From positions 1 to 64,000 of IMG/VR virus record IMGVR_UViG_3300005617_000004: a stretch of DNA of 64,000 nt; one strand, 5' to 3'. This document shows positions 22,856 to 35,551 of the stretch, piece by piece; the stretch's first letter is position 1, and each line of letters opens with the position of its first letter. The translations under genes were made by a program, and so were the position numbers. This DNA comes from a virus. The notes below the pieces were generated by a model. That model was not told where the DNA came from and did no database searches. It worked only from the letters and a program-made list of their open reading frames with translations.

Positions 22856-23452
22856 GTGGGCCGCATCATTGACCCGACGAAGCCGCAGCCCGCGGCGCCG
22901 ACCCTGGAGCAGTGGCTGACCGCGTTCACCTGCATCCAGGAGTGTTCGGCCGACGCCGCCGACAACTCCGAGATCCGCAGGAGCGTCAGCGACAACGTCA
23001 AGATGCTGCGCGCCCGGGTGAAGGAGAACGCCGACCCGCAGGCCGAGCGGTTGCTGGCGTCACAGGAGCTGATCCAGCGGCAGATGTTCGCCCAGCGGCC
23101 GGAGATCAGCCGTCTGATCCTGGCCGAATGGCGTATCGCGATGGTCGACATCCGGGCTTACTGCTGGGACCTGACGCAGCCGGTCCACTACCACGAGGGC
23201 CCGGTCAAGGGCGGTGTCATCCTGTTCTGGCAGGGCGACGCGGGGCTGCAGGACAACAGCACCAAGACCCAGGTCAGCCGCCGCACCGCCCTGATGGCCA
23301 TCAAGTTCCTGAAGTTCGTGAAGGCCATGGGCGAGGAGTCGGACCCGATCAAGTACACGCAGCAGATGCTGGAGAAGCAGGGCATCACCGCCGACAACTT
23401 CCACCTGTACGCCGATCAGCTGGCGTTCCCGAACCCCTGGACCGCTCAGTGA
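22856..23452 (+). CDS. hypothetical protein
   Basis: GAGGAG RBS; GTGA overlap with recombinase. Confidence 0.6.
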   Translation: MGRIIDPTKPQPAAPTLEQWLTAFTCIQECSADAADNSEIRRSVSDNVKMLRARVKENADPQAERLLASQELIQRQMFAQRPEISRLILAEWRIAMVDIRAYCWDLTQPVHYHEGPVKGGVILFWQGDAGLQDNSTKTQVSRRTALMAIKFLKFVKAMGEESDPIKYTQQMLEKQGITADNFHLYADQLAFPNPWTAQ

Positions 23453-24411
23453 TCTTGACCACCGAGGCAGACCTGCACCGCAGCCTCGCCGCCGCCATCA
23501 AGAGCGGGGTGTGGGGCTACGTGCGCGTGTCGACCGACAAGCAGGAGGAGGGTCAGTCGCCGGAAGCCCAGCAGGACGAGATCCGGGCCTACTGCGCCTC
23601 CGTGTTCCCCGACATGACGGTGACGATCGTGCAGGAGGCCGCCAGCGCCGCGTTGCCGATGTTCTCGGTCGCGCTGCCGGGCATGAAGGCGACGGGCCCT
23701 ACCTCCATCACCGAGGCGCCACGCCCGCTGCTGGGCATCTTGCTGGCGTCGCTGTGCGACCGGCCCGGGTCGCATCTGGTGGTGTGGAAGCTCGACCGTC
23801 TGGCCCGCGTGGCGACCGAGCAGGAGATGTTCCTGTCGCTGCTGCGCCGCAATCAGGTGACGGTCCACACGGCCTATGCCGGTGAGCGGCATCTGGTGGA
23901 GGGCACCGCCTCCGCCGACCAGGACCCGGTGCGGCACCTGATGCGGCAGATCCTGGCGTGCTTCGCCGAGTACGAGCGACGCATGATCCATATGCGCATG
24001 AGCATGGGCACCCGCAAGAAGGCGTCCAAGGGCGGCTACTGCGGCGGCAACACGCCGTACGGGTACGAGGTGCAGGGCGGCGAGCTGAAGATCAACCCGG
24101 TGCAGGCACCGGTGGTGGTCGACGTGTTCCGGATGCGGGACCTGTATGCCTACACCTACAAGATGATCGGCGAATCCTTGATGTTGAACCGCGGGCTGGC
24201 CGGGTTCCACAAGGTGAAGGTGCTGCGCATCATTGGCCACCGGCGTTTGTACAGCGGCCTGTACACCGACCCTTTCGGCAAGGAGCACCTGCGGCTCGAC
24301 CTCAAGATCCTGCCCGACTCCTGGGAGCGACGGCCCGACGAGATCCTGCCGCTGGCCCCCGCAGCCGCATCCACCCCTGACGACGAGGTACCTGACTATG
24401 GCAGCGAATGA
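23449..24411 (+). CDS. serine recombinase (resolvase domain plus recombinase domain)
   Basis: GYVRVSTDKQ, VWKLDRLAR, FAEYER..I..R, GG.TPYGY. Confidence 0.9.
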   Translation: MILTTEADLHRSLAAAIKSGVWGYVRVSTDKQEEGQSPEAQQDEIRAYCASVFPDMTVTIVQEAASAALPMFSVALPGMKATGPTSITEAPRPLLGILLASLCDRPGSHLVVWKLDRLARVATEQEMFLSLLRRNQVTVHTAYAGERHLVEGTASADQDPVRHLMRQILACFAEYERRMIHMRMSMGTRKKASKGGYCGGNTPYGYEVQGGELKINPVQAPVVVDVFRMRDLYAYTYKMIGESLMLNRGLAGFHKVKVLRIIGHRRLYSGLYTDPFGKEHLRLDLKILPDSWERRPDEILPLAPAAASTPDDEVPDYGSE

Positions 24412-24809: not shown

Positions 24810-25328
24810 ATGATCGCCGCCCTGCTGTGTCCAGGCCCCTCCCTCGCCGACACCTGCGTGTCGGACGTGTCGCTCGGCGTGTTCGACGTGGTGATCGCGG
24901 TCAACCGCGCGATCATGCTGCGACCCGGCATCGAGAAGCTGATCCACTGGCACGCCTGTGGGGACTGGGACACCCTGTACTCGATCCCGTCGAAGCCGAC
25001 GGTCGGCATCTGCTCCCAGCGCGACGTGGCGCGGATCACGCAGAACGGGCAGCACGCGTCGTTCTATGCCGGACTGCGCTGGGAGGCATGGGAAGACCTG
25101 GGCGTGTCGCCGGGCTACTCGACGATCGCGGGTATCGCTTTGGCGGCGAAGCTCGGCGCGGAGCACCTCGTGGTGTTCGGTGACGACAAGAACGGGTTGT
25201 TCGACTGGGACGGGACGCCCGGCCGGCTGCGGAACGGCGACCGGTGGGACAAGGAGCGCACGCTGCAGGACCGGGCCATCGCGAAGCTGAAGCTCGACGT
25301 CCGGTACGTCAGCAAGGTGGCGGTATGA
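24810..25328 (+). CDS. glycosyltransferase/MptE-like Rossmann protein
   Basis: PGPSL, VIAVN, GA..LVVFG.D motifs. Confidence 0.55.
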   Translation: MIAALLCPGPSLADTCVSDVSLGVFDVVIAVNRAIMLRPGIEKLIHWHACGDWDTLYSIPSKPTVGICSQRDVARITQNGQHASFYAGLRWEAWEDLGVSPGYSTIAGIALAAKLGAEHLVVFGDDKNGLFDWDGTPGRLRNGDRWDKERTLQDRAIAKLKLDVRYVSKVAV

Positions 25329-25909
25329 CCAAGGACCTGCCGTACGTGGTGTGTGCGTTCTACACCGACGACGACATCTACCGCGGCTATGCGGAGACGC
25401 TGCGCGAGTCGCTGGTCGCGCACCAGCTGCCGCACGACATCACCAAGCTGCCGGCCGACCACTTCAAGGGGCACTGGAAGGCAGCGTGCCGGTGGAAGCC
25501 GCGGTTCATCGCTGCCATGCTGCTGCGGCACTGCTTGAAGGACGTGCTGTATCTCGACGCGGACGCGGCGGTGCTGTCGCACCCGACGCTGTTCGACCGG
25601 TTTGAAGGGGACCTCGGCGTGCATCTGCGGCCTCCTGGCGAGCTGTTCGCGTCGACGATCTACGTGAAGAACAGCGACGCGGGGCAGAAGGCCGTCATGC
25701 GTTGGTGGGAGCACGTCGAGCAAGACGAGAAGAACGACGACCAGACCATGCTGCAGCGCACGGTCGACGAGCTGCGCGGAGAGGTTTCCGTCGTCAATCT
25801 CCCATCGACCTACGCCTACAAGTTCGCCCAGTCACCCGCCGAGGCGGTGATCGGGCAGTATCAGGCGAGTCGCAGGGTGCGGGCGCTGAACGGCGGGAAG
25901 GCGCCGTGA
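25325..25909 (+). CDS. nucleotide-diphospho-sugar transferase (GT-A)
   Basis: WKP.FI, VLYLDADA, DDQ..L motifs. Confidence 0.75.
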   Translation: MTKDLPYVVCAFYTDDDIYRGYAETLRESLVAHQLPHDITKLPADHFKGHWKAACRWKPRFIAAMLLRHCLKDVLYLDADAAVLSHPTLFDRFEGDLGVHLRPPGELFASTIYVKNSDAGQKAVMRWWEHVEQDEKNDDQTMLQRTVDELRGEVSVVNLPSTYAYKFAQSPAEAVIGQYQASRRVRALNGGKAP

Positions 25910-26586
25910 TCCGCGTCTACATCGGCACGCAGCCCGAGCAGAAGCTCGCCTGTGAGGTGCTGAAGTATTCGATCACTGCGCGTGCGACGGAGCCAGTGTC
26001 GTTCTTCGAGATCACCGACAAGACCAACCGCTACGCGATGACGGGCTTCTCCTTCGCGCGCTGGTACGTGCCGAAGTTGGCGAAAGAAAACGGCGATCAG
26101 ACGGCGATCTACATGGACGCCGACATCGTCGTGCTCGGCGACATCGCGGCCCTTGAGCACGCTGCTGGCGAGAAGCCCACGCTCGCGCGGCCGACATCCG
26201 ATGGGCGGTACTTCACCAGCGTGATGCGACTCAACATCGCGCGCATCAACTGGGATGTGGGCGGTCTTCTCGTCGACGGATTCGCCGGGCTGCCCGAGTG
26301 GCTGCACAACGCAATCATGTGGGCCGCGTCGAACTCTCCGTGGCGCGCCGACTTCGGCGAACTTAGCGCGCGCTGGAACGACCTGGACTTGGTGAAGGAT
26401 GGTACGCAAGCATTGCACTACACCGACCTCAAGCGGCAGCCCTGGCGGTATGCGGGGCACCCGTTTGGCTACGTGTGGCAAGCCGAGTTGAAGTCGGCGC
26501 TTGCAGACAAAGCGATCTCGATGGCGCTGGTGCAGGACGAGATCGCGAGGGGGCACGTGCGCGGCGATGTGCTGACGGTGACCTGA
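25906..26586 (+). CDS. glycosyltransferase family 8-like
   Basis: T.FSFARW.VP, AIYMDAD, WN.LD, LHYT...QPW. Confidence 0.8.
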   Translation: MIRVYIGTQPEQKLACEVLKYSITARATEPVSFFEITDKTNRYAMTGFSFARWYVPKLAKENGDQTAIYMDADIVVLGDIAALEHAAGEKPTLARPTSDGRYFTSVMRLNIARINWDVGGLLVDGFAGLPEWLHNAIMWAASNSPWRADFGELSARWNDLDLVKDGTQALHYTDLKRQPWRYAGHPFGYVWQAELKSALADKAISMALVQDEIARGHVRGDVLTVT

Positions 26587-26645
26587 TATTGCGCGGACAA
26601 GAGCGCCGCGCGCACTATCGGGTCATCGGCGCTGAAGAAGACCCC

Positions 26646-26672
26646 TTGACACCCTAGCGGGCTCGATAGTGT
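26646..26672 (+). promoter_or_regulatory. promoter of tRNA array 1
   Basis: TTGACA and TAGTGT (15-bp spacer); leader ATG 7 nt downstream, i.e. near-leaderless. Confidence 0.6.
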
Positions 26673-26679
26673 CGCGGGC

Positions 26680-26808
26680 ATGGACCTCATACTCCCATCC
26701 AGCAGAACAGCGAAAGCAATGACGTGGCATCGCCCCGTCGTGGCCGGTTGCTTTATTGCTGGTGATCGCACCGGCAATGAAAAGCCGGGACGGTTCGGGG
26801 GTTCGTGA
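26680..26808 (+). CDS. attenuator leader peptide 1 (MDLILPSSRTAKAMTWHRPVVAGCFIAGDRTGNEKPGRFGGS)
   Basis: 42 codons, 37 distinct; lies between promoter and terminator; its end overlaps the antiterminator. Confidence 0.75.
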   Translation: MDLILPSSRTAKAMTWHRPVVAGCFIAGDRTGNEKPGRFGGS

Positions 26809-26874
26809 GGCACTAGGACCGTAAGTCCACCCTCTCCGAACCCCGGGCCCGCAAAGGCTCGGGGTTTTTCTTTC
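26798..26874 (+). terminator. attenuator 1: antiterminator/terminator
   Basis: terminator AACCCCGGGCC-CGCAAA-GGCTCGGGGTT+TTTCTTT (26839-26873); GGGGTTCG (26798) pairs with CGAACCCC (26837). Confidence 0.85.
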
Positions 26875-26900
26875 TATAACTCTATACTGTGGCCTGTCAC

Positions 26901-26974
26901 GGCTGAGTCGCTCAACGGCAGGGCGCACGTTTGAAACACGTGAGACGGTGGTTCGACTCCACCTTCAGCCACCA
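26901..26974 (+). tRNA. tRNA-Phe(GAA)
   Basis: cloverleaf, loop TTGAAAC, CCA. Confidence 0.9.
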
Positions 26975-26977
26975 TAT

Positions 26978-27053
26978 TGGTGTGAAGCATAACGGGTTAT
27001 GCACCTCTCTGTTAAAGAGGACCAACGGGGTTCGAGTCCCTGCGCACCAGCCA
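26978..27053 (+). tRNA. tRNA-Asn(GTT)
   Basis: cloverleaf, loop CTGTTAA, CCA. Confidence 0.9.
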
Positions 27054-27082
27054 TTTTCTTACGTAGCAGTATTTCTTGTTAC

Positions 27083-27157
27083 GCGGTCGTAACTCAATCG
27101 GAAGAGTCCCGCCTTCTAAGCGGAGAGATACGGGTTCGAGCCCTGTCGGCCGCGCCA
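27083..27157 (+). tRNA. tRNA-Arg(TCT)
   Basis: cloverleaf, loop CTTCTAA, CCA. Confidence 0.9.
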
Positions 27158-27161
27158 TTCT

Positions 27162-27233
27162 CGCGTCGTAGCTCAGCGGAAGAGCAGCTCGGTCCTAACG
27201 AGAAGGCCAGAGGTTCGATCCCTCTCGACGCGG
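27162..27233 (+). tRNA. tRNA-Arg(CCT)
   Basis: cloverleaf, loop GTCCTAA; CTA instead of CCA. Confidence 0.8.
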
Positions 27234-27242
27234 CTATTTCAC

Positions 27243-27318
27243 GGTCCTATCGTCTAGCAGCCTAGGATGACTGGTTCTCAGCCAGTAGACACGAGTGCGA
27301 ACCTCGTTAGGACTACCA
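27243..27318 (+). tRNA. tRNA-Glu(CTC)
   Basis: cloverleaf, loop TTCTCAG, CCA. Confidence 0.88.
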
Positions 27319-27320
27319 TC

Positions 27321-27484
27321 GCCAGTGCAGCACGGAAGGACGTGCAAACAAGTGCAACGCTTATCAGGATCGACCGGCGGCCGACGGGCGCCTGCATCAT
27401 GAATAATGGGCACAGTAGGTCCCTCCCTGGACGTGTCACCCAATAGCCCGACGGGGCAGCCGGTGTCGAACCCGGCCACTGGCC
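27321..27484 (+). ncRNA. tRNA-like RNA with ~110-nt insert replacing the anticodon arm
   Basis: acceptor GCCAGTG/CACTGGC, D arm GCAC/GTGC, T arm GCCGG/CCGGC. Confidence 0.6.
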
Positions 27485-27589
27485 TTTTTCAGCGCGCCCC
27501 TGCTCCGGGGGCCTTCTCAGCGCGACAGTCAGGCGATACGAGGAGTACGCCGTGTACGAAAGCATAAGCTGTCATGGAGACTTCTTCAC

Positions 27590-27661
27590 GGCGCTATCGT
27601 CCAACCGGAAGGATACGAGGCCTTCAACCTCACGATGTCGGTTCGACTCCGACTAGCGCTA
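27590..27661 (+). tRNA. tRNA-Glu(TTC)
   Basis: cloverleaf, loop CCTTCAA. Confidence 0.82.
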
Positions 27662-27670
27662 CTTTTCCAC

Positions 27671-27746
27671 GCCCGAATAGATCAATGGATAGATCGCGAC
27701 GCTACGGACGTCGAGGCTGAAGGTTCGAGTCCTTCTTCGGGTACCA
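27671..27746 (+). tRNA. tRNA-Arg(ACG)
   Basis: cloverleaf, loop CTACGGA, CCA. Confidence 0.9.
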
Positions 27747-27752
27747 CTTCAC

Positions 27753-27827
27753 GCGGGATTAGGTCAGTGGCAGACCGTCTCTTTTACATGGAGAATGCCG
27801 GGGGTTCGATTCCCTCATCCCGTACCA
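27753..27827 (+). tRNA. tRNA-Val(TAC)
   Basis: cloverleaf, loop TTTACAT, CCA. Confidence 0.9.
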
Positions 27828-27834
27828 GTTTCAA

Positions 27835-27910
27835 TGGTCTGTAGCTCATCGGCCAGAGCGCTTCCCTGACACGGAAGAGGCAGTGAGTTCAATTCTCGCC
27901 AGACCAACCA
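27835..27910 (+). tRNA. tRNA-Val(GAC)
   Basis: cloverleaf, loop CTGACAC, CCA. Confidence 0.9.
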
Positions 27911-27970
27911 ACGGTCTGCGGTGGCCACCGCAGCGTAAGCCCGGGAGTGATTCTCGGGGCCACGTTTCAT

Positions 27971-28045
27971 GGGGGCTTAGTGATAATGGTAGCACGTCTG
28001 CCTTGCAAGCAAACAGCGGGAGTTCGATTCTCCCAGCCTCCACCA
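27971..28045 (+). tRNA. tRNA-Ala(TGC)
   Basis: cloverleaf, loop CTTGCAA, G3:U70, CCA. Confidence 0.9.
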
Positions 28046-28096
28046 GATCCGCTTACCGCCCCTGGTCACGGATGTAAAACTCAGACCGGGGCACCT

Positions 28097-28171
28097 GTCT
28101 CCATAGTCCAGCGGAACGGACACTTCCCTGTCACGGAAGAAACCCGAGTTCGACTCTCGGTGGGGACGCCA
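28097..28171 (+). tRNA. tRNA-Asp(GTC)
   Basis: cloverleaf, loop CTGTCAC, G73, CCA. Confidence 0.9.
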
Positions 28172-28176
28172 TTTAC

Positions 28177-28253
28177 CGGAATGTAGCTCAGTCTAGTAGA
28201 GCGCTTGCTTCGGGAGCAAGAGGCCGTGGGAGCAAAGCCCGCCATTCCGACCA
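28177..28253 (+). tRNA. tRNA-Pro(CGG)
   Basis: cloverleaf, loop TTCGGGA; atypical T loop AGCAAAG. Confidence 0.85.
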
Positions 28254-28260
28254 TTCACAT

Positions 28261-28337
28261 CAGACCGTAGCTCAGCCTAGGAGAGCGCCACTTTGGGGTA
28301 GTGGAGGTCGCAGGCGCACATCCTGTCGGTCTGACCA
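28261..28337 (+). tRNA. tRNA-Pro(GGG)
   Basis: cloverleaf, loop TTGGGGT; atypical T loop CGCACAT. Confidence 0.85.
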
Positions 28338-28343
28338 TTTTCA

Positions 28344-28415
28344 GGGGGAGATCCGGGTCCGAATCCCGGTCTCGCGGCGACGGTCGCGAGTCTCGTCTAA
28401 CGGTAGGACGCCCCC
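28344..28415 (+). ncRNA. circularly permuted tRNA-like RNA (T arm, closed acceptor hairpin, D arm)
   Basis: GGGGG...CCGGG-TCCGAAT-CCCGG, CTCGCGGC-GACG-GTCGCGAG, GTCTAACGGTAGGAC, CCCCC. Confidence 0.65.
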
Positions 28416-28451
28416 GCTTTCATTCACCAACACCTCGGAAAGGAGGTCACT

Positions 28452-29000
28452 ATGCCCGGCGGACGCTGCCTCGTGCTCAATGCGAGCTTCGAGTTCCTTC
28501 ACATCACCAACACGTGGTTCGATTCGCTTCGTCTGCTTCGTCGCGGCAAGGTGACCGCCATCAAGAACTACCCGGTGCCGGCCAGATCCGAGAAGGACCT
28601 CGCGCTGATCCCGGCGGTGGCGGTGCTCAAGACCTACATCTCGACGCCGCGCAAGAAGAGTCACTTCACGCTGCCGACCCACCGCAACATCCTGATCCGC
28701 GATGGGTTCAAGTGTGGGTACTGCGCGTGCAAGCTGACGCTCGGCACGGTGACCAAGGATCACGTGATCCCGCGGTCGAAGGGCGGTCAGGACGTGCTGA
28801 CCAACGTCGTGGCGGCTTGCAAGCGGTGCAACACCCGCAAGGCGGACAAGACGCCCAGCGAGGCTGGCCTGACGCTGCTGGCGGTGCCGAGGGCGCTCAA
28901 CGAAGAAGAGAAGCTGACGATCGTGGTCAAGACGCACAAGGCACCCGAGCGCGCATTGTGGAAGGAGGCGCTCGAGGAGTTGAAGGTGAAGCTGTTCTGA
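28452..29000 (+). CDS. HNH endonuclease (McrA-like)
   Basis: LVLNAS, RD...CGYC, T.DHVIPRSKGG, N.V.AC..CN..K; strong RBS AAGGAGGT. Confidence 0.9.
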   Translation: MPGGRCLVLNASFEFLHITNTWFDSLRLLRRGKVTAIKNYPVPARSEKDLALIPAVAVLKTYISTPRKKSHFTLPTHRNILIRDGFKCGYCACKLTLGTVTKDHVIPRSKGGQDVLTNVVAACKRCNTRKADKTPSEAGLTLLAVPRALNEEEKLTIVVKTHKAPERALWKEALEELKVKLF

Positions 29001-29031
29001 TTTCTCCGGGCCGCCCATGGGCCCGGTTTCT

Positions 29032-29106
29032 CGGGGTGTAGCTCAACAGTAGAGCAACGCGTTTGGGGCGCGAAGGTAGCTGGCGCGACACCAGTCATCC
29101 CGACCA
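29032..29106 (+). tRNA. tRNA-Pro(TGG)
   Basis: cloverleaf, loop TTTGGGG, CCA. Confidence 0.82.
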
Positions 29107-29109
29107 TTT

Positions 29110-29191
29110 GAGTGAAGTGTTCTAGCCAGCCGGGCTGGCGGCGGATTGCAACCCCGCTGACATTGCCGTTCGACTCGGCCTTCACTCTCCA
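29110..29191 (+). tRNA. tRNA-Cys(GCA), 8/4 acceptor/T-stem
   Basis: GAGTGAAG/CTTCACTC, loop TTGCAAC, T stem GCCG/CGGC, U73-CCA. Confidence 0.8.
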
Positions 29192-29195
29192 TCAC

Positions 29196-29270
29196 GCGCC
29201 CGTAGCTCAATAGTAGAGCACTCCGCTCTTATCGGAGGGGTTGAAGGTCCAAGTCCTTCCGGGTGTACCA
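29196..29270 (+). tRNA. tRNA-Lys(CTT)
   Basis: cloverleaf, loop CTCTTAT, CCA. Confidence 0.88.
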
Positions 29271-29275
29271 TCTCC

Positions 29276-29349
29276 GTCCGCAAAGCGTTACAGTAGCGTA
29301 CTACCTTGCCATGGTAGGGGCCCGAGTGCGACTCTCGGTGCGGACTCCA
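29276..29349 (+). tRNA. tRNA-Gly(GCC)
   Basis: cloverleaf, loop TTGCCAT, U73-CCA. Confidence 0.88.
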
Positions 29350-29354
29350 TTTCT

Positions 29355-29430
29355 GCCGTCGTAGCTCAGCTGGAAGAGCATCTCTTTCCGAAAGAGAAGG
29401 CCAGAGGTTCGACCCCTCTCGGCGGCGCCA
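29355..29430 (+). tRNA. tRNA-Arg(CCG)
   Basis: cloverleaf, loop TTCCGAA, CCA. Confidence 0.9.
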
Positions 29431-29435
29431 TTCAC

Positions 29436-29507
29436 CGCCATGTAGCTCAATAGCGAGAGCGAGTCTTTCATACGGACAGGATCGGGGTGCGATTCCCTGC
29501 TTGGCGA
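29436..29507 (+). tRNA. tRNA-Met(CAT) elongator (or Ile2)
   Basis: cloverleaf, loop TTCATAC; no encoded CCA. Confidence 0.78.
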
Positions 29508-29513
29508 CTTCAC

Positions 29514-29589
29514 TGGCCATTCGTCTAACGGAAGGACCGCCTTCTTATAAATGGCAGATCGACGGGTTCGACTCCCTCATGGCCAACCA
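29514..29589 (+). tRNA. tRNA-Ile(TAT)
   Basis: cloverleaf, loop CTTATAA, A73-CCA. Confidence 0.78.
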
Positions 29590-29593
29590 TCAC

Positions 29594-29668
29594 GCTGTCG
29601 TAGCTCAGTTGTAGAGCGCCGCTTTCGTACTGCGGAGGTCGCAGGATCAACCCCTGTCGACAGCACCA
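29594..29668 (+). tRNA. tRNA-Thr(CGT)
   Basis: cloverleaf, loop TTCGTAC, CCA. Confidence 0.85.
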
Positions 29669-29674
29669 ATTCAT

Positions 29675-29750
29675 GCGGATGAAGCAGCACTGGCGCTGCG
29701 CCTGCCTTCCAAGCAGGAGAAAGCGGGTTCGAGCCCCGTCGTCCGCTCCA
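29675..29750 (+). tRNA. tRNA-Gly(TCC)
   Basis: cloverleaf, loop CTTCCAA, U73-CCA. Confidence 0.9.
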
Positions 29751-29753
29751 TAT

Positions 29754-29827
29754 GCTGGTCTGAGGTAACGCTAGCCTGCGGCCCTTGTATCGCCGACGCC
29801 AGGGTTGAACTCCCTGGACCAGCACCA
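29754..29827 (+). tRNA. tRNA-Thr(TGT)
   Basis: cloverleaf, loop CTTGTAT, CCA. Confidence 0.82.
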
Positions 29828-29834
29828 TCTTCAC

Positions 29835-29906
29835 GCTGCCATAGCCGAGTAGTTAGGCGCCTTCTTGGTAAGAAGGAGATCGTGGGTGCAAATCCCACTG
29901 GTAGCT
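29835..29906 (+). tRNA. tRNA-Thr(GGT)
   Basis: cloverleaf, loop TTGGTAA. Confidence 0.88.
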
Positions 29907-29911
29907 CATTT

Positions 29912-29985
29912 GCACCTATAGCTCAATGGCAGAGCTTTCGTCTGATACACGAAAGACCGATGTTCGATTCATCGTAGGTGCACCA
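29912..29985 (+). tRNA. tRNA-Ile(GAT)
   Basis: cloverleaf, loop CTGATAC, CCA. Confidence 0.9.
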
Positions 29986-29989
29986 TCAT

Positions 29990-30060
29990 AGGAAGCGTCG
30001 CTGGGCGAGTAGCGGACTCCAAACCCGCTGGGCCGCGTTCAAATCGCGGGCTTCCTGCCA
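29990..30060 (+). tRNA. tRNA-Trp(CCA)
   Basis: loop CTCCAAA, very short D arm, G73-CCA. Confidence 0.8.
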
Positions 30061-30067
30061 TCTACAT

Positions 30068-30142
30068 GTTGTTCGTCGTCTAGCAGCAAGACGCTGGTTT
30101 GTGGCGCCAGAAACGCGGGTGCGATTCCCGTCGAGCAACCCA
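30068..30142 (+). tRNA. tRNA-His(GTG)
   Basis: G-1:C73, loop TTGTGGC, CCA. Confidence 0.88.
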
Positions 30143-30147
30143 TTCAC

Positions 30148-30223
30148 GGAGCAGAGGCGGTACAGGTTCCGCACCGAGTTTTTACCTCGGGGTCAGTGGG
30201 TTCGAGCCCCACCTGCTCTACCA
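30148..30223 (+). tRNA. tRNA-Lys(TTT)
   Basis: cloverleaf, loop TTTTTAC, CCA. Confidence 0.88.
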
Positions 30224-30251
30224 TTGACACCCAGACAGACCACAGTACAAG
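30224..30251 (+). promoter_or_regulatory. promoter of tRNA array 2
   Basis: TTGACA-16 bp-TACAAG; leader ATG 9 nt downstream. Confidence 0.6.
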
Positions 30252-30260
30252 GCGATCATC

Positions 30261-30344
30261 ATGAACGCGCTATTGCTCCAATCCTCGCAGTCATATCTGC
30301 TCTCGCTGAGTCAGCGAGTGGGGTTCGGAGCTACGTTGCGCTGA
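30261..30344 (+). CDS. attenuator leader peptide 2 (MNALLLQSSQSYLLSLSQRVGFGATLR)
   Basis: codons 4-18 are all Leu/Gln/Ser/Tyr; overlaps antiterminator. Confidence 0.8.
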   Translation: MNALLLQSSQSYLLSLSQRVGFGATLR

Positions 30345-30398
30345 GGTGCCATCCCTCCCACGTTCTCCCGAACCCCAGGCCGACCGCCTGGGGTTTTT
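30319..30398 (+). terminator. attenuator 2: antiterminator/terminator
   Basis: terminator AACCCCAGGC-CGACC-GCCTGGGGTT+TTT (30371-30398); TGGGGTTCGG (30319) pairs with CCGAACCCCA (30368). Confidence 0.88.
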
Positions 30399-30433
30399 GC
30401 GTTTGACAACTCTATATCGTGGCAGCGAAACAC

Positions 30434-30517
30434 GTACGAGTGGCGGAATCGGCATACGCGCCAGCTTGAGGTGCTGGTGTCTTCGGACAACTCCGGGTTC
30501 AAGTCCCGGCTCGTACA
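30434..30517 (+). tRNA. tRNA-Leu(GAG)
   Basis: long variable arm, loop TTGAGGT. Confidence 0.9.
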
Positions 30518-30522
30518 GTCAA

Positions 30523-30609
30523 TGGGGAGTGATGGAACAGAAGACATGCCAGTTTCAGAAGCTGGTGCCCTAAGCAGGCGTGAGAGTGCGAATCTCTTCT
30601 CCCCAACCA
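30523..30609 (+). tRNA. tRNA-Leu(CAG)
   Basis: long variable arm, loop TTCAGAA, CCA. Confidence 0.88.
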
Positions 30610-30612
30610 TTT

Positions 30613-30695
30613 GCGCCCGTGTCGTAACGGAAGCCGAGGCATGCTCAAACCATGCTGCCCTTCGGGGCGTACAAGTTCAACTCTTGTCGGGCGCA
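30613..30695 (+). tRNA. tRNA-Leu(CAA)
   Basis: long variable arm, loop CTCAAAC. Confidence 0.88.
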
Positions 30696-30702
30696 GTCAT
30701 TT

Positions 30703-30791
30703 GGATCTTGCAGCGGGATGGACACCGCACCTGTTTGCTAAACAGGCGGGCCCCACAAGGGCTCCCGGTTCGACTCCGGCAAAATCCGCCA
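30703..30791 (+). tRNA. tRNA-Ser(GCT), 8/4 fold
   Basis: loop TTGCTAA, long variable arm, T stem CCGG/CCGG, G73-CCA. Confidence 0.85.
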
Positions 30792-30795
30792 TCAC

Positions 30796-30884
30796 GGGAA
30801 GTTTCATAAGCCGGACCGGGTCCGGGCCACGCTGTAAACGTGCTCCCTAACGGGCGAGGTGTTCGACTCACCAACTTCCCACCA
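30796..30884 (+). tRNA. tRNA-Tyr(GTA), 8/4 fold
   Basis: GGGAAGTT/AACTTCCC, loop CTGTAAA, T stem GGTG/CACC, CCA. Confidence 0.82.
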
Positions 30885-30889
30885 TTCAT

Positions 30890-30974
30890 GGAAGGCGAAG
30901 CAGCAGCGGTGCGGCATCGGTCTCGAAAACCGAGGTGCTCTTCGGGGCATGGTGTTCGACTCACCCGTCTTCCT
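30890..30974 (+). tRNA. tRNA-Ser(CGA), 8/4 fold
   Basis: GGAAGGCG/CGTCTTCC, loop CTCGAAA, long variable arm. Confidence 0.85.
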
Positions 30975-30979
30975 CACAT

Positions 30980-31055
30980 TCAGGGATCGTTCAACTTGGT
31001 AGGACTCCGCGCTCTGGACGCGAGAATGCAGGTCCGAATCCTGCTCCCTGAACCA
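30980..31055 (+). tRNA. tRNA-Gln(CTG)
   Basis: cloverleaf, loop CTCTGGA, CCA. Confidence 0.88.
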
Positions 31056-31061
31056 CTTCAC

Positions 31062-31135
31062 TGACGCTTCGACTAATTTGGTAAGTCCCCTCGCTTTGAA
31101 CGAGGACAATCAGGGTTCGAGTCCCTGGGCGTCAA
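31062..31135 (+). tRNA. tRNA-Gln(TTG)
   Basis: cloverleaf, loop CTTTGAA. Confidence 0.88.
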
Positions 31136-31643
31136 TTTCTCTGAGTCGGCGCTTCCAGAAAAATATAGTAGAGCGGCCTGCGTCGAACTGCTTCATACAG
31201 ACCGCCGCCGATGCTTTGGGGTGCGCGCGGATGAAGGCTGCGAACCGATACATTATGTCAGGGCGCTCTATGCCGTGGTAGAAATGGTTGGAGTGGTAGC
31301 CCCCGCTGCATTTACGAGAGCAGAACAGCGGGCGCCGCTGCGCGAATCGCACTTTATGAGGCTTTCGCATGAAGTAGATTTTGCAATTCGGGCATAGGAC
31401 TTTTACGGGCGGTAGGCGTTTGTGAAGACCGTTGTGGGCCTGCACGCTCATGAGTTGCAAGTTTTCAATTCGGTTATCGTGGCCGTCATGGTTTATGTGG
31501 TGTACGATCTCTTCACTGATAAGGGCACGTCCTAGGAACTGCTCCATAACGTAGCGGTGTTCCAGCTGTCGATCCGTCTTACTCCAGTGCGCCATTTTGT
31601 AGGGGCCATGTTTGTACACGGCTCGGGGCTTACACGTATGCAT
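31110..31643 (-). CDS. HNH homing endonuclease
   Basis: EHRYVME..LGR.L...EIVHHIN....DNRIENL; CPNC and FCSRKC; low GC. Confidence 0.85.
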   Translation of the reverse strand: MHTCKPRAVYKHGPYKMAHWSKTDRQLEHRYVMEQFLGRALISEEIVHHINHDGHDNRIENLQLMSVQAHNGLHKRLPPVKVLCPNCKIYFMRKPHKVRFAQRRPLFCSRKCSGGYHSNHFYHGIERPDIMYRFAAFIRAHPKASAAVCMKQFDAGRSTIFFWKRRLREIDAQGLEP

Positions 31644-31987
31644 GCGAGGAGTCTAACGGTAAGGATGCGCAAGCAACGGCGACCGCGATCAGTCTTGCAC
31701 ATCCGGCGCGCACGCCGGGCAGCCGCAGCGAATGACCGCCTCTGCTTTCTCGCGCAGCTTCCCTTCGCGGCGCACGCGCTTCTTGGCGAGTCGTTTCATC
31801 TCGCGCTCCAGAGCGCAGAACCGACAGCCCTTGTTGCCGCAGTGGCCGACCGGATCGTTCTTGTGCAGCCGGTGACCGACGAGCTTCTGCTCGGCGAGCG
31901 ACTGGCCGTGTTGCTTCGAGATGTTCTCGCGCCGGATGATCACCAGCTCGGTACGGTGGCGGCGTTCTGCGCGGTTGGTCATTGGCG

Positions 31988-32380
31988 TCAGTCCCACAGC
32001 GCCTGGAAGCGCTCGCCGAACAGCTTCAAGCCGCGCACCTTGATCACGTCCCGCCGGTCCGCTTCCGGGTAGTAGATGCTCTTGTCGAGCATGCAGATGT
32101 CGTCGTCCTGGCGTACGACATAGTCGAAGGCTTCGATCATCAGGTCGAGCTCGGCCTCCCACTGTTCGGAGTCGGCCTTGGACTCCGCGTCGCCGTACTC
32201 GGGCACGCAGCCCATCGGGTTGAGGCACGGGTGCCCCATCCGGTCCAGGGCTTTGAACGCCCGCAGCCGTGGCAGGATCAGCTTCGCCAGATGGACGTCG
32301 AGACCCCACATGGCGCAGTCGTCGAACCCCCGGGTGCGACGCTGCCACCACCATTTGATTTCCCGGAAGATACGGCGCAT
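31988..32380 (-). CDS. phage hypothetical protein
   Basis: RG.DD...W.LD..LA..ILPRL..F and GL.LF...F..LWD pattern. Confidence 0.7.
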   Translation of the reverse strand: MRRIFREIKWWWQRRTRGFDDCAMWGLDVHLAKLILPRLRAFKALDRMGHPCLNPMGCVPEYGDAESKADSEQWEAELDLMIEAFDYVVRQDDDICMLDKSIYYPEADRRDVIKVRGLKLFGERFQALWD

Positions 32381-32501
32381 GCCGGCACCCTAGCCGCCGC
32401 TTGCTCTCGTGCAACCCCTCCCTAGTCTCTCCATCGCACTCGGTTCCTTGACTGCTTCATCACCCAGCCGCTAGCAGTCCGGCTTGACTAAGGAGGATAC
32501 C

Positions 32502-33263
32502 ATGATGCACATCGCAAACCCGTCGACCGTCGTCACGCTGGAGGATGCCAACACCGGCAAGCCGTTCCGCGAGTACGACCATTCCCGCACCCCGGCTGGC
32601 AGCTACGTCCGGGTGGTGCTGCCGTTCGACACCGAGTACCGGTTCCGGTTCCAGTTCCCCGACACCTCCGGCACGCGCCGGCGCCTGGAGCTCGACATCG
32701 ACGGCACGACCGTGGCCAAGGACCTGATCCTGACCCACGGCGTGACGCTGGAGCGGTTCCTGGACTCCGACAAGCGGTTCAAGTTCGTGCGGGCGACGGC
32801 GGAAGGCGTGGCGAACCCTGCGTCGCCGGACAACGGCGTGATCACGGTGAAGCTGTGGCCGGAGAAGCCGGTGCAGTATCGCGACGAGCCGTATCTCGTC
32901 AGTGTGCTGCGCGGAACGAGGCCCCCGACGTCCTACACAGGTCGAGGTGCGAGCACGCAGGACTGGGGGTACAGCACTACCCTGGGCATCTCGAAAGGGG
33001 TCCAGGACTACAGCGGGGACGCCATCCGCTCGGTGTCAGGCCCCGCCTACGAACCCGGCGCCACGGCCGAAGGCGCGAAGAGCAACCAGCAGTTCGGCAC
33101 CACCGAGTGGCGCGGCGACGAGTTGTCGCAGCCGCACGTGTTCGTGTTCCAGCTGGTCGGGCAGGCCAGTGACCCGGCCCGGTTCTGCGGTGCGTGCGGG
33201 GCCGCGTACCCGTACTCGTTCACGCCCGCCAAGTTCTGCGCCGCCTGTGGGGTGCGGAAATAG
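32502..33263 (+). CDS. hypothetical protein with C-terminal double Zn ribbon
   Basis: AAGGAGG RBS; FCGACG...KFCAACG. Confidence 0.7.
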   Translation: MMHIANPSTVVTLEDANTGKPFREYDHSRTPAGSYVRVVLPFDTEYRFRFQFPDTSGTRRRLELDIDGTTVAKDLILTHGVTLERFLDSDKRFKFVRATAEGVANPASPDNGVITVKLWPEKPVQYRDEPYLVSVLRGTRPPTSYTGRGASTQDWGYSTTLGISKGVQDYSGDAIRSVSGPAYEPGATAEGAKSNQQFGTTEWRGDELSQPHVFVFQLVGQASDPARFCGACGAAYPYSFTPAKFCAACGVRK

Positions 33264-33385
33264 GCTCTTGACTCAATAGCATTCTCACTAGGGTAGCCAG
33301 GGACCGTCGGCTGGGCTGATAACCTAACACGCCGACTCATCACCGCGTATCGTGGGCTGGCGGTCACCATTCTTTCACATCACAT

Positions 33386-33462
33386 TGCGGGATGGAGTAG
33401 CAGCTAACTCGTTAGCCTCATAAGCTAAAGATCGCAGGTGCCAAGTCCTGCTCCCGCAACCA
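33386..33462 (+). tRNA. tRNA-Met(CAT), initiator-like body
   Basis: TGCGGGATGGAG start, loop CTCATAA, CCA; lacks the 3 G-C anticodon-stem pairs. Confidence 0.8.
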
Positions 33463-33465
33463 TAT

Positions 33466-33546
33466 GCTTGGGTAGCTCAGCGAAAGAGCACTCGGTCCTG
33501 TAACGGGACTGAGAGGTCGGTGGTTCAAGTCCATCCCCGAGCGCCA
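33466..33546 (+). ncRNA. tRNA-like RNA with extended 8-10 bp anticodon stem
   Basis: normal acceptor/D/T arms and CCA; CTCGGTCC-TGTAACG-GGACTGAG. Confidence 0.7.
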
Positions 33547-33592
33547 GTTCGTGTCCACGACACAAACGTCAGCCCCAGCCGCAGGTGGGTCC

Positions 33593-33762
33593 TAACAGCG
33601 GCGCAGGAAACCTCACTAGTATCCTACTAATCGGGTCGATCCTTGGTGCGGTCACGAGCCAACGCGTGACGTCATTCGGGTTTCGACGTTGCGGCAGGGA
33701 CGGCCCGCAGCAATGCGCCCGGGATCGACTGCCGGTGTTTTCAGCTGCGCCGAAACCCGTTG
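33593..33762 (+). ncRNA. putative structured RNA (multibranch)
   Basis: CGGCGCAG/CTGCGCCG, GTCGATCC/GGATCGAC, GTCACG/CGTGAC, GTTGCGG/CCGCAGC pairings. Confidence 0.45.
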
Positions 33763-33777
33763 TACCAAGGAACACCC

Positions 33778-34203
33778 ATGGCCCGCAAGCGCGCGAACAA
33801 GACCGCCAAGTTCGGCCCCAACGTGTCGTTCTGCTCCGACGGCAAGACCGGCGACTTCGCGCTCGACGTCAAGGCGTTCGGTCTGAACGTCCAGGCGCAG
33901 GGCAACACCAAGAAGCTGCGGATCAGCAAGCTGTTGAGCCACATGCCGGTGATCGGCAAGATGGTCGGCGGTTTGGGCGACGCGGCGCCGACCCCGAGTG
34001 CCGAGCCGACCGACGCCGAGATCCTGGCCCGGTTCAAGACCCGGGACACGTACGTCGCGTACCTGTCGCAGAGGATATACGCCTTCAACGCGCAGCAGGC
34101 TCAAGACAAGGCAGCGTTCGACGCGCAGATGGGGAAGGCCTGCGAGCGTGGGTCCGTCCTGTACCCAGAGCCGAAGGCGAAGCCGGCCGCCAAGAAGTCC
34201 TGA
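33778..34203 (+). CDS. hypothetical basic protein
   Basis: AAGGA RBS; typical codon usage. Confidence 0.65.
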   Translation: MARKRANKTAKFGPNVSFCSDGKTGDFALDVKAFGLNVQAQGNTKKLRISKLLSHMPVIGKMVGGLGDAAPTPSAEPTDAEILARFKTRDTYVAYLSQRIYAFNAQQAQDKAAFDAQMGKACERGSVLYPEPKAKPAAKKS

Positions 34204-34205
34204 CC

Positions 34206-34535
34206 ATGTACGAAATCGCCCCGACCACTGTCGCCTTCCCGCGCACCCCAACCGTGCTCGCCGTCCTGCAGCTCCGGTTCCCGGACCACTACAGCGTCAG
34301 CAAGCTGCCCCTGGCCGACGCCGACCGCGACCAGCTGGCGATGCGGCTCGAGTCCGCGATGATGGAGGTGCACCGGCTGAGCGGCATCGTCGACAAGAAC
34401 CCGGACGGGTATCCGGACCCGGCGACCGGCACGGTGGTGAAGCCGGAGTACCTCGTGCTACGGCTCAGCAGCGCGGTGCGGGACGCCAACGTGATGCGGG
34501 AGTATCTCGCGCTCAATGATGTGTGGAGACACTGA
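34206..34535 (+). CDS. hypothetical protein
   Basis: follows previous stop by 2 nt. Confidence 0.6.
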   Translation: MYEIAPTTVAFPRTPTVLAVLQLRFPDHYSVSKLPLADADRDQLAMRLESAMMEVHRLSGIVDKNPDGYPDPATGTVVKPEYLVLRLSSAVRDANVMREYLALNDVWRH

Positions 34536-34538
34536 CAC

Positions 34539-34615
34539 GCCCCCGTAGCACAACGGCAGTGCAGCCGCCGACTAGAGGCGGAAGGCCGCGGGTTCGATTC
34601 CCGTCGGGGGTTCCA
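34539..34615 (+). tRNA. atypical tRNA, apparent anticodon CTA (amber)
   Basis: GCCCCCG/CGGGGGT, U73-CCA, stem CCGCC/GGCGG around loop GACTAGA. Confidence 0.6.
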
Positions 34616-34840
34616 CTGTGGAGTTCGCTATGGCTCTGTACCGCACCTGCCTCGACGCGACCATTTTCAATTCGGGGCAGTTTCTGCCGCGCCGCCTGCG
34701 GGCTCGCTGGGTCAATGCGCAGAGGCAGTACCTGCGCGGCGTCCGCTACGAGGCGATCATCCAGCCGCTGTACGACTCTTTGTCTCTTGACCTGCTGACC
34801 GGACTCCCTAGCGTCGCACCCATGAAGCCCATCTCCCTAG

Positions 34841-35487: not shown

Positions 35488-35502
35488 GCCACCAAACGAA
35501 GA

Positions 35503-35524
35503 ACCCAGGGCTTGCGCCCTGGGT
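35503..35524. terminator. terminator hairpin between convergent genes
   Basis: ACCCAGGGC-TTGC-GCCCTGGGT; T-rich tail on minus strand. Confidence 0.7.
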
Positions 35525-35551
35525 CCGTCGAACCAGCCAAAGCCGTAAGGC

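What the first reader, a model, noticed from the sequence alone, without database searches (positions are those of the whole stretch)
26646..26900. Attenuator 1: a codon-sampler leader with 37 different codons in 42
ORF 26680-26808 almost never reuses a codon and includes codons uncommon in this GC-rich genome (ATA, AGA, ACA, AAA, CCA, TTT, AAT). By my count 26 of the 28 array-1 anticodons have a cognate codon (only AGG and GAG missing), including all three Pro, three Thr, two Lys, two Ile and two Gly isoacceptors. It also has 2 Leu and 3 Ser codons at its ends. GGGGTTCG sits in the last codons before the stop and pairs with the terminator 5' arm. Classical leaders repeat one amino acid; this would be a broad-spectrum OR gate.
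Basis: partly seen in the sequence, partly recalled or inferred. Interest (0 to 1): 0.9.

Follow-up and report, generated by a model that had tools for sequence, protein, structure and literature searches.

The report
Multi-amino-acid leader attenuator gating phage tRNAs
In front of this phage's 28-gene tRNA array sits a tiny test gene that uses all 16 amino acids those tRNAs carry and is wired to a switchable transcription stop, so the phage probably makes its own tRNAs only when ribosomes decode slowly; I found no published account of this control for tRNA genes.

Summary
ORF 26680-26808 has 42 sense codons, 37 of them different. No in-frame 42-codon window in the phage's genes exceeds 35. 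Among 109,022 open six-frame windows, the only others reaching 37 are its own antisense register and two windows inside the tRNA array.

The amino-acid match is the stronger signal. Codons 9-41 contain all 16 amino acids served by array 1 and none of Leu, Ser, Gln or Tyr, which is unique among 218,844 windows. The paralogous cassette before array 2 has a 15-codon run of only Leu, Ser, Gln and Tyr, exactly that array's tRNAs.

GGGGTTCG at the ORF end pairs with CGAACCCC, the terminator's 5' arm, and an upstream segment can sequester it, as in the classical three-helix attenuator.

Two unrelated viral contigs carry four more cassettes whose leaders track their tRNA blocks, including tRNA-Cys and the Arg codons read by one Arg tRNA. 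About two dozen further contigs and phiCbK show the same layout.

The claim that 26 of 28 anticodons are covered is true but not beyond chance given the peptide. No expression data were available.

Earlier notes of this scan report the same phenomenon on other DNA. I found no published account.

The parts
26646..26654 (+). Promoter-like -35 box TTGACA, within TTGACACCC. The exact 9-mer occurs only here and at 30224 in the window.
   Evidence: The block conserved with L008 starts 8 nt upstream of it.
26667..26672 (+). Weak -10-like hexamer TAGTGT, 15 nt after the -35 box. The ATG follows 7 nt later, so the mRNA would have no 5' leader or almost none.
   Evidence: Read from the sequence. The consensus promoter scan did not call it.
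26680..26808 (+). Leader ORF: 42 codons plus TGA, with 37 distinct codons. GC at the third codon position is 0.58-0.60, against about 0.85 in genes.
26685..26696 (+). Region 1 (codons 2-6). It pairs with region 2 in 12 bp when no ribosome is present.
26704..26802 (+). Sampler core, codons 9-41. It contains all 16 amino acids of array 1 and no Leu, Ser, Gln or Tyr.
   Evidence: 1 of 218,844 six-frame windows has this property.
26797..26811 (+). Region 2, with core GGGGTTCG at 26798-26805. It overlaps the last codons and the stop codon.
26837..26844 (+). Region 3, CGAACCCC. It is the partner of region 2 and part of the terminator's 5' arm.
   Evidence: The antiterminator fold of 26790-26852 gives -31.9 kcal/mol.
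26838..26873 (+). Intrinsic terminator: 12-bp stem (8 GC pairs), 6-nt loop and a T tract.
   Evidence: The hairpin gives -22.7 kcal/mol.
26878..26893 (+). Box AACTCTATACTGTGGC between the terminator and the first tRNA. Its function is unknown.
   Evidence: only two copies in the 109.5-kb genome, one after each of the two terminators.
26901..30223 (+). tRNA array 1: 28 tRNAs for 16 amino acids, interrupted by an HNH endonuclease gene at 28452-29000.
30224..30423 (+). Paralogous cassette 2. It comprises TTGACACCC, a leader ORF at 30261-30344 whose codons 4-18 are only Leu, Ser, Gln and Tyr, GGGGTTCG at 30320-30327, CGAACCCC at 30369-30376, a terminator at 30370-30396 and the same box at 30408-30423.
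30434..31135 (+). tRNA array 2: three Leu, two Ser, one Tyr and two Gln tRNAs.

Best explanation
This is a ribosome-mediated (leader-peptide) transcription attenuator that gates the phage's 28-gene tRNA array. The steps below are the proposed mechanism.

1. Transcription starts at or just before the ATG at 26680, and a ribosome translates the 42-codon leader close behind RNA polymerase.
2. If every codon is decoded promptly, the ribosome reaches the last codons and the stop. It then covers GGGGTTCG (region 2), so CGAACCCC (region 3) is left to form the terminator hairpin and transcription ends at about 26870.
3. If the ribosome is held up at any of roughly codons 9-35 because the matching charged tRNA is short, region 2 stays free. 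It pairs with region 3, the terminator cannot form, and polymerase reads into the tRNA genes.
4. With no ribosome at all, region 1 (codons 2-6) captures region 2 and the terminator forms.
5. Because the leader carries at least one codon for each of the 16 amino acids served by array 1, it works as an OR gate over that whole set.
6. A sister cassette does the same for the Leu, Ser, Tyr and Gln tRNAs of array 2.

Shown here: the anatomy, the statistics of the match, the alternative pairings and the recurrence in other phages. Inferred: translation of the ORF, stalling, readthrough, and whether the natural trigger is host tRNA cleavage, codon mismatch or late-infection tRNA decline.
For: 1. **Match to the array.** Codons 9-41 hold all 16 array-1 amino acids and none of the four served by array 2; this is unique among 218,844 six-frame windows. 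Leader 2's 15-codon run of only Leu, Ser, Gln and Tyr is unique among 218,952 windows.
2. **Codon diversity.** It is the genome-wide extreme. It also exceeds expectation given the peptide (P = 0.0056 with uniform synonymous choice).
3. **Switch geometry.** The region 2:3 helix has 8 GC-rich base pairs plus extensions and overlaps the terminator's 5' arm, and the region 1:2 helix has 12 bp. In ribosome-masked folds a stall at codons 9-35 gives the antiterminator, while a ribosome at codon 38 or at the stop masks region 2. In cassette 2 the predicted sensing window ends at codon 16-17, next to the end of the Leu/Ser/Gln/Tyr run at codon 18. The fold z-score for 26646-26900 is -3.9.
4. **Terminator placement.** The only two strong plus-strand terminators in 25.5-35.5 kb are the two in these cassettes.
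5. **Conserved module.** In contig L008 the stretch 26638-26873 is 99.2% identical. The adjacent tRNA-Phe and tRNA-Asn genes are only about 70-75% identical, the upstream genes are 93.8% identical, and an extra gene is inserted just upstream.
6. **Independent cassettes, 59-kb contig.** This 50% GC contig has three cassettes. The longest leader run confined to the block's amino acids covers all four of Leu, Cys, Ser and Tyr in the first. In the second it covers all nine (Asn, Gln, Gly, Thr, His, Ala, Phe, Pro and Arg), and the only Arg codons are CGA, CGC and CGT, those read by the block's ACG-anticodon tRNA. In the third it covers eight of nine (Trp, Met, Lys, Arg, Asp, Val, Ile, Gly), with Glu earlier in the ORF. 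These runs are unique or nearly so in that genome's six frames.
7. **Independent cassette, 91-kb contig.** This 62% GC contig has a 32-codon leader with 19 amino acids before a mixed array of 25 tRNAs.
8. **Permutation test.** Among all 720 ways of pairing the six leaders with the six blocks, the true pairing scores best (P = 0.00125). Over 22 unique cassettes P is below 5e-5.
9. **Wider occurrence.** A looser motif scan gave 44 viral loci, 24 of them with tRNAs within 400 nt downstream on the same strand.
10. **Cultured phage.** In phiCbK the annotated terminators precede tRNA blocks. The ORF before the Phe/Val/Ile/Ile/Val/Gln/Gln block contains a Gln/Phe/Val/Ile-rich run.
Against: - No expression, 3'-end or ribosome-occupancy data could be obtained.
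- The -10 element is weak and the consensus promoter scan did not call the promoter.
- There is no clear Shine-Dalgarno sequence, so translation depends on initiation without a 5' leader, in an unknown host.
- Each tRNA is represented by only one to three codons, so sensitivity to mild shortage is doubtful.
- Codons 36-41 (CCG, GGA, CGG and others) lie so close to region 2 that a stall there should favour termination. CCG and CGG are the only leader codons their Pro and Arg tRNAs can read.
- After a stall far downstream, region 1 is left free and might recapture region 2 unless trailing ribosomes cover it.
- Isoacceptor coverage is not better than chance given the peptide.
- Only one near-identical homologue of this particular leader could be retrieved, so frame conservation within its own lineage is untested.
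Confidence: 0.75

Rival explanations
1. The cassette is a gauge of overall translation speed or ribosome availability, for example during host shut-off or translational stress, rather than of individual tRNAs. The mixed composition would only make the leader representative of average decoding.
For: - Single codons per tRNA suit a summed rate better than a specific alarm.
- In the masked folds any delay within codons 9-35 gives the antiterminator.
- The Anabaena tRNA array is induced by general translational stress.
Against: - The phages split their tRNAs into blocks with separately matched leaders, which a general gauge would not need: Leu/Ser/Tyr/Gln against the other 16 here, and three matched sets in the 59-kb contig.
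- When tRNA-Cys sits in a Leu/Ser block, a Cys codon appears in that block's leader.
Confidence: 0.12
2. The terminator simply ends the upstream transcription unit, the TTGACA box is fortuitous, and the ORF is a chance open frame in lower-GC spacer DNA.
For: - The ORF has flat GC across codon positions, like non-coding DNA.
- The promoter is not called by the consensus scan.
- An antisense frame is equally open and equally diverse.
Against: - The amino-acid match is unique in the genome for both cassettes.
- The true leader-to-block pairing is the best of 720 across three phages.
- Region 2 always lies within ribosome reach of the stop codon.
- The cassette is 99% conserved while its flanks diverge.
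- The antisense ORF runs into tRNA-Phe and also lacks coding GC bias.
Confidence: 0.04
3. The element is an RNA-only switch, either binding tRNA directly in the manner of a T-box or binding a protein, or it is a stand-alone small RNA. The ORF would be irrelevant.
For: - The RNA is strongly structured (z = -3.9).
- The GGGTTCG and CGAACCC halves resemble tRNA T-arm sequence and recur across unrelated phages.
Against: - No Rfam family matches the cassette, including T-box and the known leader families, even at E <= 1.
- An RNA-only model does not explain why the reading frame's amino acids track the downstream tRNAs, or why the stop codon always sits beside region 2.
Confidence: 0.05
4. The ORF encodes a functional small peptide, and the terminator merely ends its short mRNA.
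For: The promoter, ORF and terminator together form a complete small gene. One phiCbK counterpart is annotated as a coding sequence.
Against: - No homologous peptide was found in the 5.8-billion-protein collection.
- The six leaders compared across the three phages (this one and the 59-kb and 91-kb contigs) share composition rules but not sequence.
- Codon usage is unlike that of the phage's genes.
Confidence: 0.03

Closest known systems
Multivalent leader-peptide attenuators of enterobacterial amino-acid operons (ilvGMEDA: Ile/Leu/Val; thr: Thr/Ile), and trpL, hisL, leuL and pheL (from established knowledge)
   Same: A short translated leader, regions 1:2, 2:3 and 3:4 as mutually exclusive helices, an intrinsic terminator, and a stalled ribosome freeing the antiterminator.
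   Different: - The regulated genes are tRNAs, not biosynthetic enzymes.
- The leader samples 16 amino acids with little codon reuse, instead of repeating one to three amino acids.
- It sits in a phage.
- It has no sequence or Rfam relation to those leaders.
pheST attenuator of E. coli, in which Phe codons in a leader control phenylalanyl-tRNA synthetase genes (from established knowledge)
   Same: Leader-peptide attenuation applied to a component of the decoding machinery, which forms a feedback loop on charged-tRNA supply.
   Different: It controls a synthetase for one amino acid, not the tRNA genes themselves and not a multi-amino-acid set.
T-box riboswitches
   Same: They sense the tRNA state and act through an antiterminator and terminator choice upstream of translation-related genes.
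   Different: A T-box binds uncharged tRNA directly and needs no translation. No T-box match was found, and here the signal lies in a reading frame.
Inducible long tRNA array (trn operon) of Anabaena sp. PCC 7120 (PMC8421152, PMC10272220)
   Same: A supernumerary tRNA array kept silent and switched on when translation is impaired.
   Different: Control there is at the promoter, through direct repeats bound by the repressor TrcR. The words 'leader' and 'attenuat' do not occur in the 2021 paper.
Cysteine-responsive leaderless short ORFs of mycobacteria (bioRxiv 10.1101/834739, listed; only the title and the start of the abstract were read)
   Same: Short ORFs on mRNAs without a 5' leader that act as amino-acid-responsive attenuators of downstream genes.
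   Different: They sense a single amino acid, lie in front of cellular operons, and are not linked to tRNA genes.

Membership tests
Ribosome-mediated (leader-peptide) transcription attenuator | A short ORF between a promoter and the regulated genes | tested here: met
   The ORF at 26680-26808 is the first start in its frame and lies 34 nt after the TTGACA box, with tRNA-Phe at 26901. The promoter itself is only predicted.
Ribosome-mediated (leader-peptide) transcription attenuator | Leader codons correspond to what the regulated genes supply | tested here: met
   All 16 amino acids of array 1 are present and none of the other four, unique in 218,844 windows. The true pairing across phages is the best of 720.
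Ribosome-mediated (leader-peptide) transcription attenuator | An intrinsic terminator between the ORF and the regulated genes | tested here: met
   12-bp stem plus T tract at 26838-26873; -22.7 kcal/mol.
Ribosome-mediated (leader-peptide) transcription attenuator | An antiterminator that uses the terminator's 5' arm, with its other strand within ribosome reach of the stop codon | tested here: met
   GGGGTTCG at 26798-26805 abuts TGA at 26806 and pairs with 26837-26844. The same geometry is seen in five other cassettes.
Ribosome-mediated (leader-peptide) transcription attenuator | An anti-antiterminator (region 1:2) that gives termination without translation | tested here: met
   26685-26696 pairs with 26797-26811 in 12 bp. 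It forms first in stepwise folds and is part of the full-length minimum-energy structure. This is a thermodynamic prediction only.
Ribosome-mediated (leader-peptide) transcription attenuator | Readthrough depends on translation of the leader and on ribosome stalling | not testable with these tools
A wet-lab assay is needed.
Known Rfam leader families (His, Trp, Thr, Leu leaders and others) | A match to the family covariance model | tested here: not met
   No match at 26646-26900 or 30224-30433, even at E <= 1.
T-box riboswitch | A match to the T-box model (specifier loop, T-box antiterminator bulge) | tested here: not met
   No Rfam T-box match in 25000-36000 at E <= 1.

The most novel reading that the evidence does not exclude
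Phages carry a widespread and so far undescribed family of tRNA-pool sensors. These are leader-peptide attenuators, many sharing the GGGTTCG/CGAACCC switch, whose test peptides are written to match the tRNA block behind them. The sampler form seen here would be a 16-amino-acid OR gate that lets the phage switch on a near-complete replacement tRNA set whenever the host, for example through anticodon nucleases used in defence, removes any one tRNA.
Probability: 0.35. Interest if true: 0.9.

Novelty: new variant of a known kind. Interest (0 to 1): 0.8.

Why it matters
- **Regulation of phage tRNA genes.** They are usually discussed as constitutive helpers for codon usage or as spares against host tRNA-cleaving defences. 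A built-in sensor would mean the phage measures decoding in real time and produces tRNAs on demand, block by block.
- **Extension of a textbook mechanism.** Leader-peptide attenuation would be extended in two ways: to tRNA genes as targets, and to a leader that polls most of the genetic code instead of repeating one amino acid.
- **Practical use.** The cassettes are compact natural parts of about 230 nt that convert slow decoding of chosen codons into transcription. That makes them usable as reporters of tRNA depletion.
- **Testability.** They occur in at least one culturable system (phiCbK and Caulobacter), so the idea can be tested directly.

Tried and rejected
- **Homologous leaders in the same lineage.**
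  - DNA searches with the cassette found nothing in the phage and plasmid collections.
  - The neighbouring glycosyltransferase has 64-83% identical relatives on other contigs.
  - Scans with that protein family gave only one near-identical contig (L008) and unrelated cellular or tRNA-less viral loci. A second neighbouring protein gave nothing.
- **Leader peptide.** It has no relatives in the protein collection.
- **Terminator-only pattern.** It returned four loci without tRNAs, which are chance matches. One hit of the two-arm pattern (L034/L038) is also unrelated.
- **Cultured phages.** BLAST of the cassettes from the two other contigs against cultured phages hit only tRNAs.
- **Codon-level tuning.** The idea that the leader is tuned to cover every isoacceptor was tested and not supported beyond the amino-acid level.
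- **Third tRNA group.** The group at 33386-33546 has a promoter-like site but no leader ORF.
- It was rerun using references.

Full report
**Context.** The window is the first 64 kb of a 109,520-bp viral record with direct terminal repeats and 65% GC. It carries two adjacent plus-strand tRNA arrays.
- Array 1 (26901-30223) has 28 tRNAs for 16 amino acids: Phe, Asn, Arg, Glu, Val, Ala, Asp, Pro, Cys, Lys, Gly, Met, Ile, Thr, Trp and His. An HNH endonuclease gene lies inside it.
- Array 2 (30434-31135) has three Leu, two Ser, one Tyr and two Gln tRNAs.
- The finding concerns the 255 nt in front of array 1.

- ORF 26680-26808 has 42 sense codons, 37 of them different. Nine are codons the phage's genes use at under 6 per thousand.
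- I built a rough set of 131 genes from third-position GC. No in-frame 42-codon window in those genes has more than 35 distinct codons; the mean is 23.8.
- Of 109,022 open six-frame windows, only 12 reach 37. These are the leader, nine antisense windows in register with it, and two inside the tRNA array.
- Against shuffles or uniform codon draws, P is 0.0015-0.0025.
- With the peptide held fixed, 37 distinct codons has P = 0.0056 under uniform synonymous choice. Under the phage's own usage it was never reached in 20,000 trials.
- The count of 26 of 28 anticodons able to read a leader codon is right. Random synonymous recoding of the same peptide achieves it about 17% of the time. Isoacceptor coverage therefore adds nothing beyond the amino acids.

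**The amino-acid match is the decisive signal.**
- Codons 9-41 contain every one of the 16 amino acids served by array 1 and none of Leu, Ser, Gln or Tyr. This is the only such 33-residue window among 218,844 in all six frames of the genome; the next best cover 14.
- Array 2 is preceded by a paralogous cassette. Both share TTGACACCC, GGGGTTCG, the terminator core and a box AACTCTATAYYGTGGC (Y = C or T). Codons 4-18 of its leader are exclusively Leu, Ser, Gln and Tyr, again the only such window in the genome.
- The tRNA sets were defined independently of the leaders, so this is a fair test.

**Switch anatomy.**
- GGGGTTCG (26798-26805) abuts the stop codon (26806-26808).
- It is complementary to CGAACCCC (26837-26844), which lies inside the 5' arm of a 12-bp, T-tailed terminator (26838-26873).
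- Before the 3' arm is transcribed, 26790-26852 folds into this antiterminator (-31.9 kcal/mol). The terminator hairpin alone gives -22.7 kcal/mol.
- Codons 2-6 (26685-26696) can pair with 26797-26811 in 12 bp. In stepwise folds without a ribosome this helix forms first, and the full-length minimum-energy structure is this helix plus the terminator.
- I masked a 30-nt ribosome footprint in the folds. A stall at codons 9-35 always yields the antiterminator, whereas a ribosome at codon 38 or at the stop buries region 2.
- In cassette 2 the same model predicts sensing up to codon 16-17, next to the end of the Leu/Ser/Gln/Tyr run at codon 18.
- These are thermodynamic predictions, not measurements.

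**Start of the transcript.**
- The -35 box is perfect, but the -10 (TAGTGT, 15-nt spacer) is weak and the consensus scan did not call it.
- The ATG follows the -10 by 7 nt, with no Shine-Dalgarno sequence. The HNH gene inside the array, by contrast, has a strong one.
- The other cassettes likewise place the ATG 6-16 nt after a -10-like hexamer. I read this as mRNAs with no 5' leader or almost none. This is an inference.

**Conservation.**
- A 5.9-kb metagenome contig (L008) carries the same cassette.
- From 8 nt upstream of TTGACA to the end of the T tract there are only two substitutions in 236 nt.
- Around that block, the upstream genes are 93.8% identical and an extra small gene is inserted just before the cassette. 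There is a 15-nt insertion just after the T tract, and the following tRNA-Phe and tRNA-Asn genes are only about 70-75% identical.
- The promoter-leader-terminator unit therefore behaves as one sharply bounded module.
- With a single near-identical copy, the test of "codon set conserved rather than peptide" could not be made. The contigs of the more distant relatives were out of reach.

**Independent cassettes in a 59-kb contig.** A scan of viral contigs for the two-arm motif plus terminator gave three loci, two directly upstream of tRNA arrays. The 59-kb contig (50% GC) has 34 tRNAs in three blocks, each behind its own leader and terminator.
- The leader before the block of five Leu, one Cys, three Ser and one Tyr tRNA has a core of Leu, Ser, Tyr and Cys codons.
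- The leader before Asn, two Gln, Gly, three Thr, His, Ala, Phe, Pro and Arg(ACG) has a 27-codon core made of exactly those nine amino acids. Its only Arg codons are CGA, CGC and CGT.
- I predicted a third leader from the layout before looking for it. Before Trp, Met, two Lys, three further Arg, Glu, Asp, Val, Ile and Gly, it contains all nine of those amino acids.
- The longest leader runs confined to each block's amino acids are unique or nearly so in that genome's six frames.

**Independent cassette in a 91-kb contig.** This 62% GC contig has a 32-codon leader with 19 of the 20 amino acids in front of a mixed array of 25 tRNAs. It is a second sampler.

**Permutation test.** When the six leaders are permuted among the six blocks, the true pairing is the best of all 720 (P = 0.00125).

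**Wider occurrence.**
- A looser motif scan returned 44 loci, 24 of them with tRNAs within 400 nt downstream on the same strand.
- These include AT-rich phage families whose leaders end with GGGTTCG in their last codons, and a 33-codon leader with 19 amino acids before a block of 15 tRNAs.
- Over 22 unique cassettes the leader-to-block association has P below 5e-5. Many of these are related to one another, and some blocks are cut off by locus ends.
- Because I searched with the motif, its apparent universality is partly ascertainment. Two cassettes of the 59-kb contig use other sequences.

**Cultured phage.**
- In Caulobacter phage phiCbK the GenBank record annotates rho-independent terminators immediately before tRNA blocks.
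- The ORF before the Phe/Val/Ile/Ile/Val/Gln/Gln block contains a run rich in exactly those residues.
- Another phiCbK leader, annotated as a 45-residue protein, is rich in Ser, Leu, Pro and Lys as expected. [quoted passage not shown] The rule is therefore not perfect there.

**Comparison with what is known.**
- Rfam has no match to either cassette at E <= 1, including T-box and the known amino-acid leaders.
- Full-text searches for leader-peptide or attenuation control of phage or other tRNA genes found nothing relevant.
- The phiCbK genome paper mentions neither leaders nor attenuation.
- The nearest published biology is the Anabaena tRNA array induced under translational stress. It is controlled by promoter repeats and the repressor TrcR, not by a leader.
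- Earlier AI notes of this same scan describe the same phenomenon in other phages, including phiCbK-like ones. I used them as leads only and checked phiCbK and the Anabaena papers myself.

**Verdict.**
- The feature is real and very unlikely to be chance. It is best explained as a multi-amino-acid leader-peptide attenuator of a phage tRNA array (confidence about 0.75).
- It works like the classical attenuators and meets every structural criterion I could test.
- It belongs to no catalogued leader family, and its target and its sampler design are new.
- Open points are whether the promoter and start codon are used, whether one codon per tRNA is sensitive enough, how stalls late in the ORF are read, and what triggers it in nature.

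Noticed in passing
window 26878-26893 and 30408-30423: A 16-nt box AACTCTATAYYGTGGC (Y = C or T) follows both attenuator terminators and occurs nowhere else in the 109.5-kb genome. L008 has a slightly diverged copy. It may be a processing or binding site; its function is unknown.
   Followed up: partly
window 34539-34615: A tRNA with anticodon CTA, which would read the amber stop codon. ARAGORN labels it Pyl. It stands alone, downstream of the arrays.
   Followed up: no
window 28452-29000; L035 4875-5456 (-): The window ORF, inside the tRNA array, matches HNH endonuclease families and has a strong Shine-Dalgarno sequence. An ORF lies in the same position inside the 59-kb contig's array, but it gave no Pfam match.
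   Followed up: partly
L035 2414-2992 (-): The 59-kb contig encodes a protein with RF-1 and PCRF (class I release factor) domains directly upstream of its second tRNA cassette. This links ribosome termination or rescue functions to the arrays.
   Followed up: partly
L008 4300-4448 compared with window 26901-27053: tRNA-Phe and tRNA-Asn differ by about 25-30% between two phages whose attenuator cassette is 99% identical and whose neighbouring genes are 94% identical. This suggests tRNA genes are exchanged or evolve quickly behind a fixed control module.
   Followed up: partly
L048-L089 (viral contigs): The switch halves GGGTTCG and CGAACCC recur upstream of tRNA arrays in phages ranging from AT-rich to 65% GC. 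The sequence resembles a tRNA T-arm, so the cassettes may descend from tRNA genes.
   Followed up: partly
window 33269-33385: The small third tRNA group (Met, then Leu with anticodon TAA) has a promoter-like TTGACT-17 nt-TAGGGT but no leader ORF or terminator.
   Followed up: partly
window 22912-24411: An ORF with a serine recombinase (resolvase) domain lies about 2 kb upstream of the tRNA region.
   Followed up: no
window 28340-28425: Between tRNA-Pro (GGG anticodon) and the HNH gene there is a stretch with T-arm-like sequence. Relaxed ARAGORN called it a doubtful tRNA-Val; it may be a tRNA remnant.
   Followed up: no
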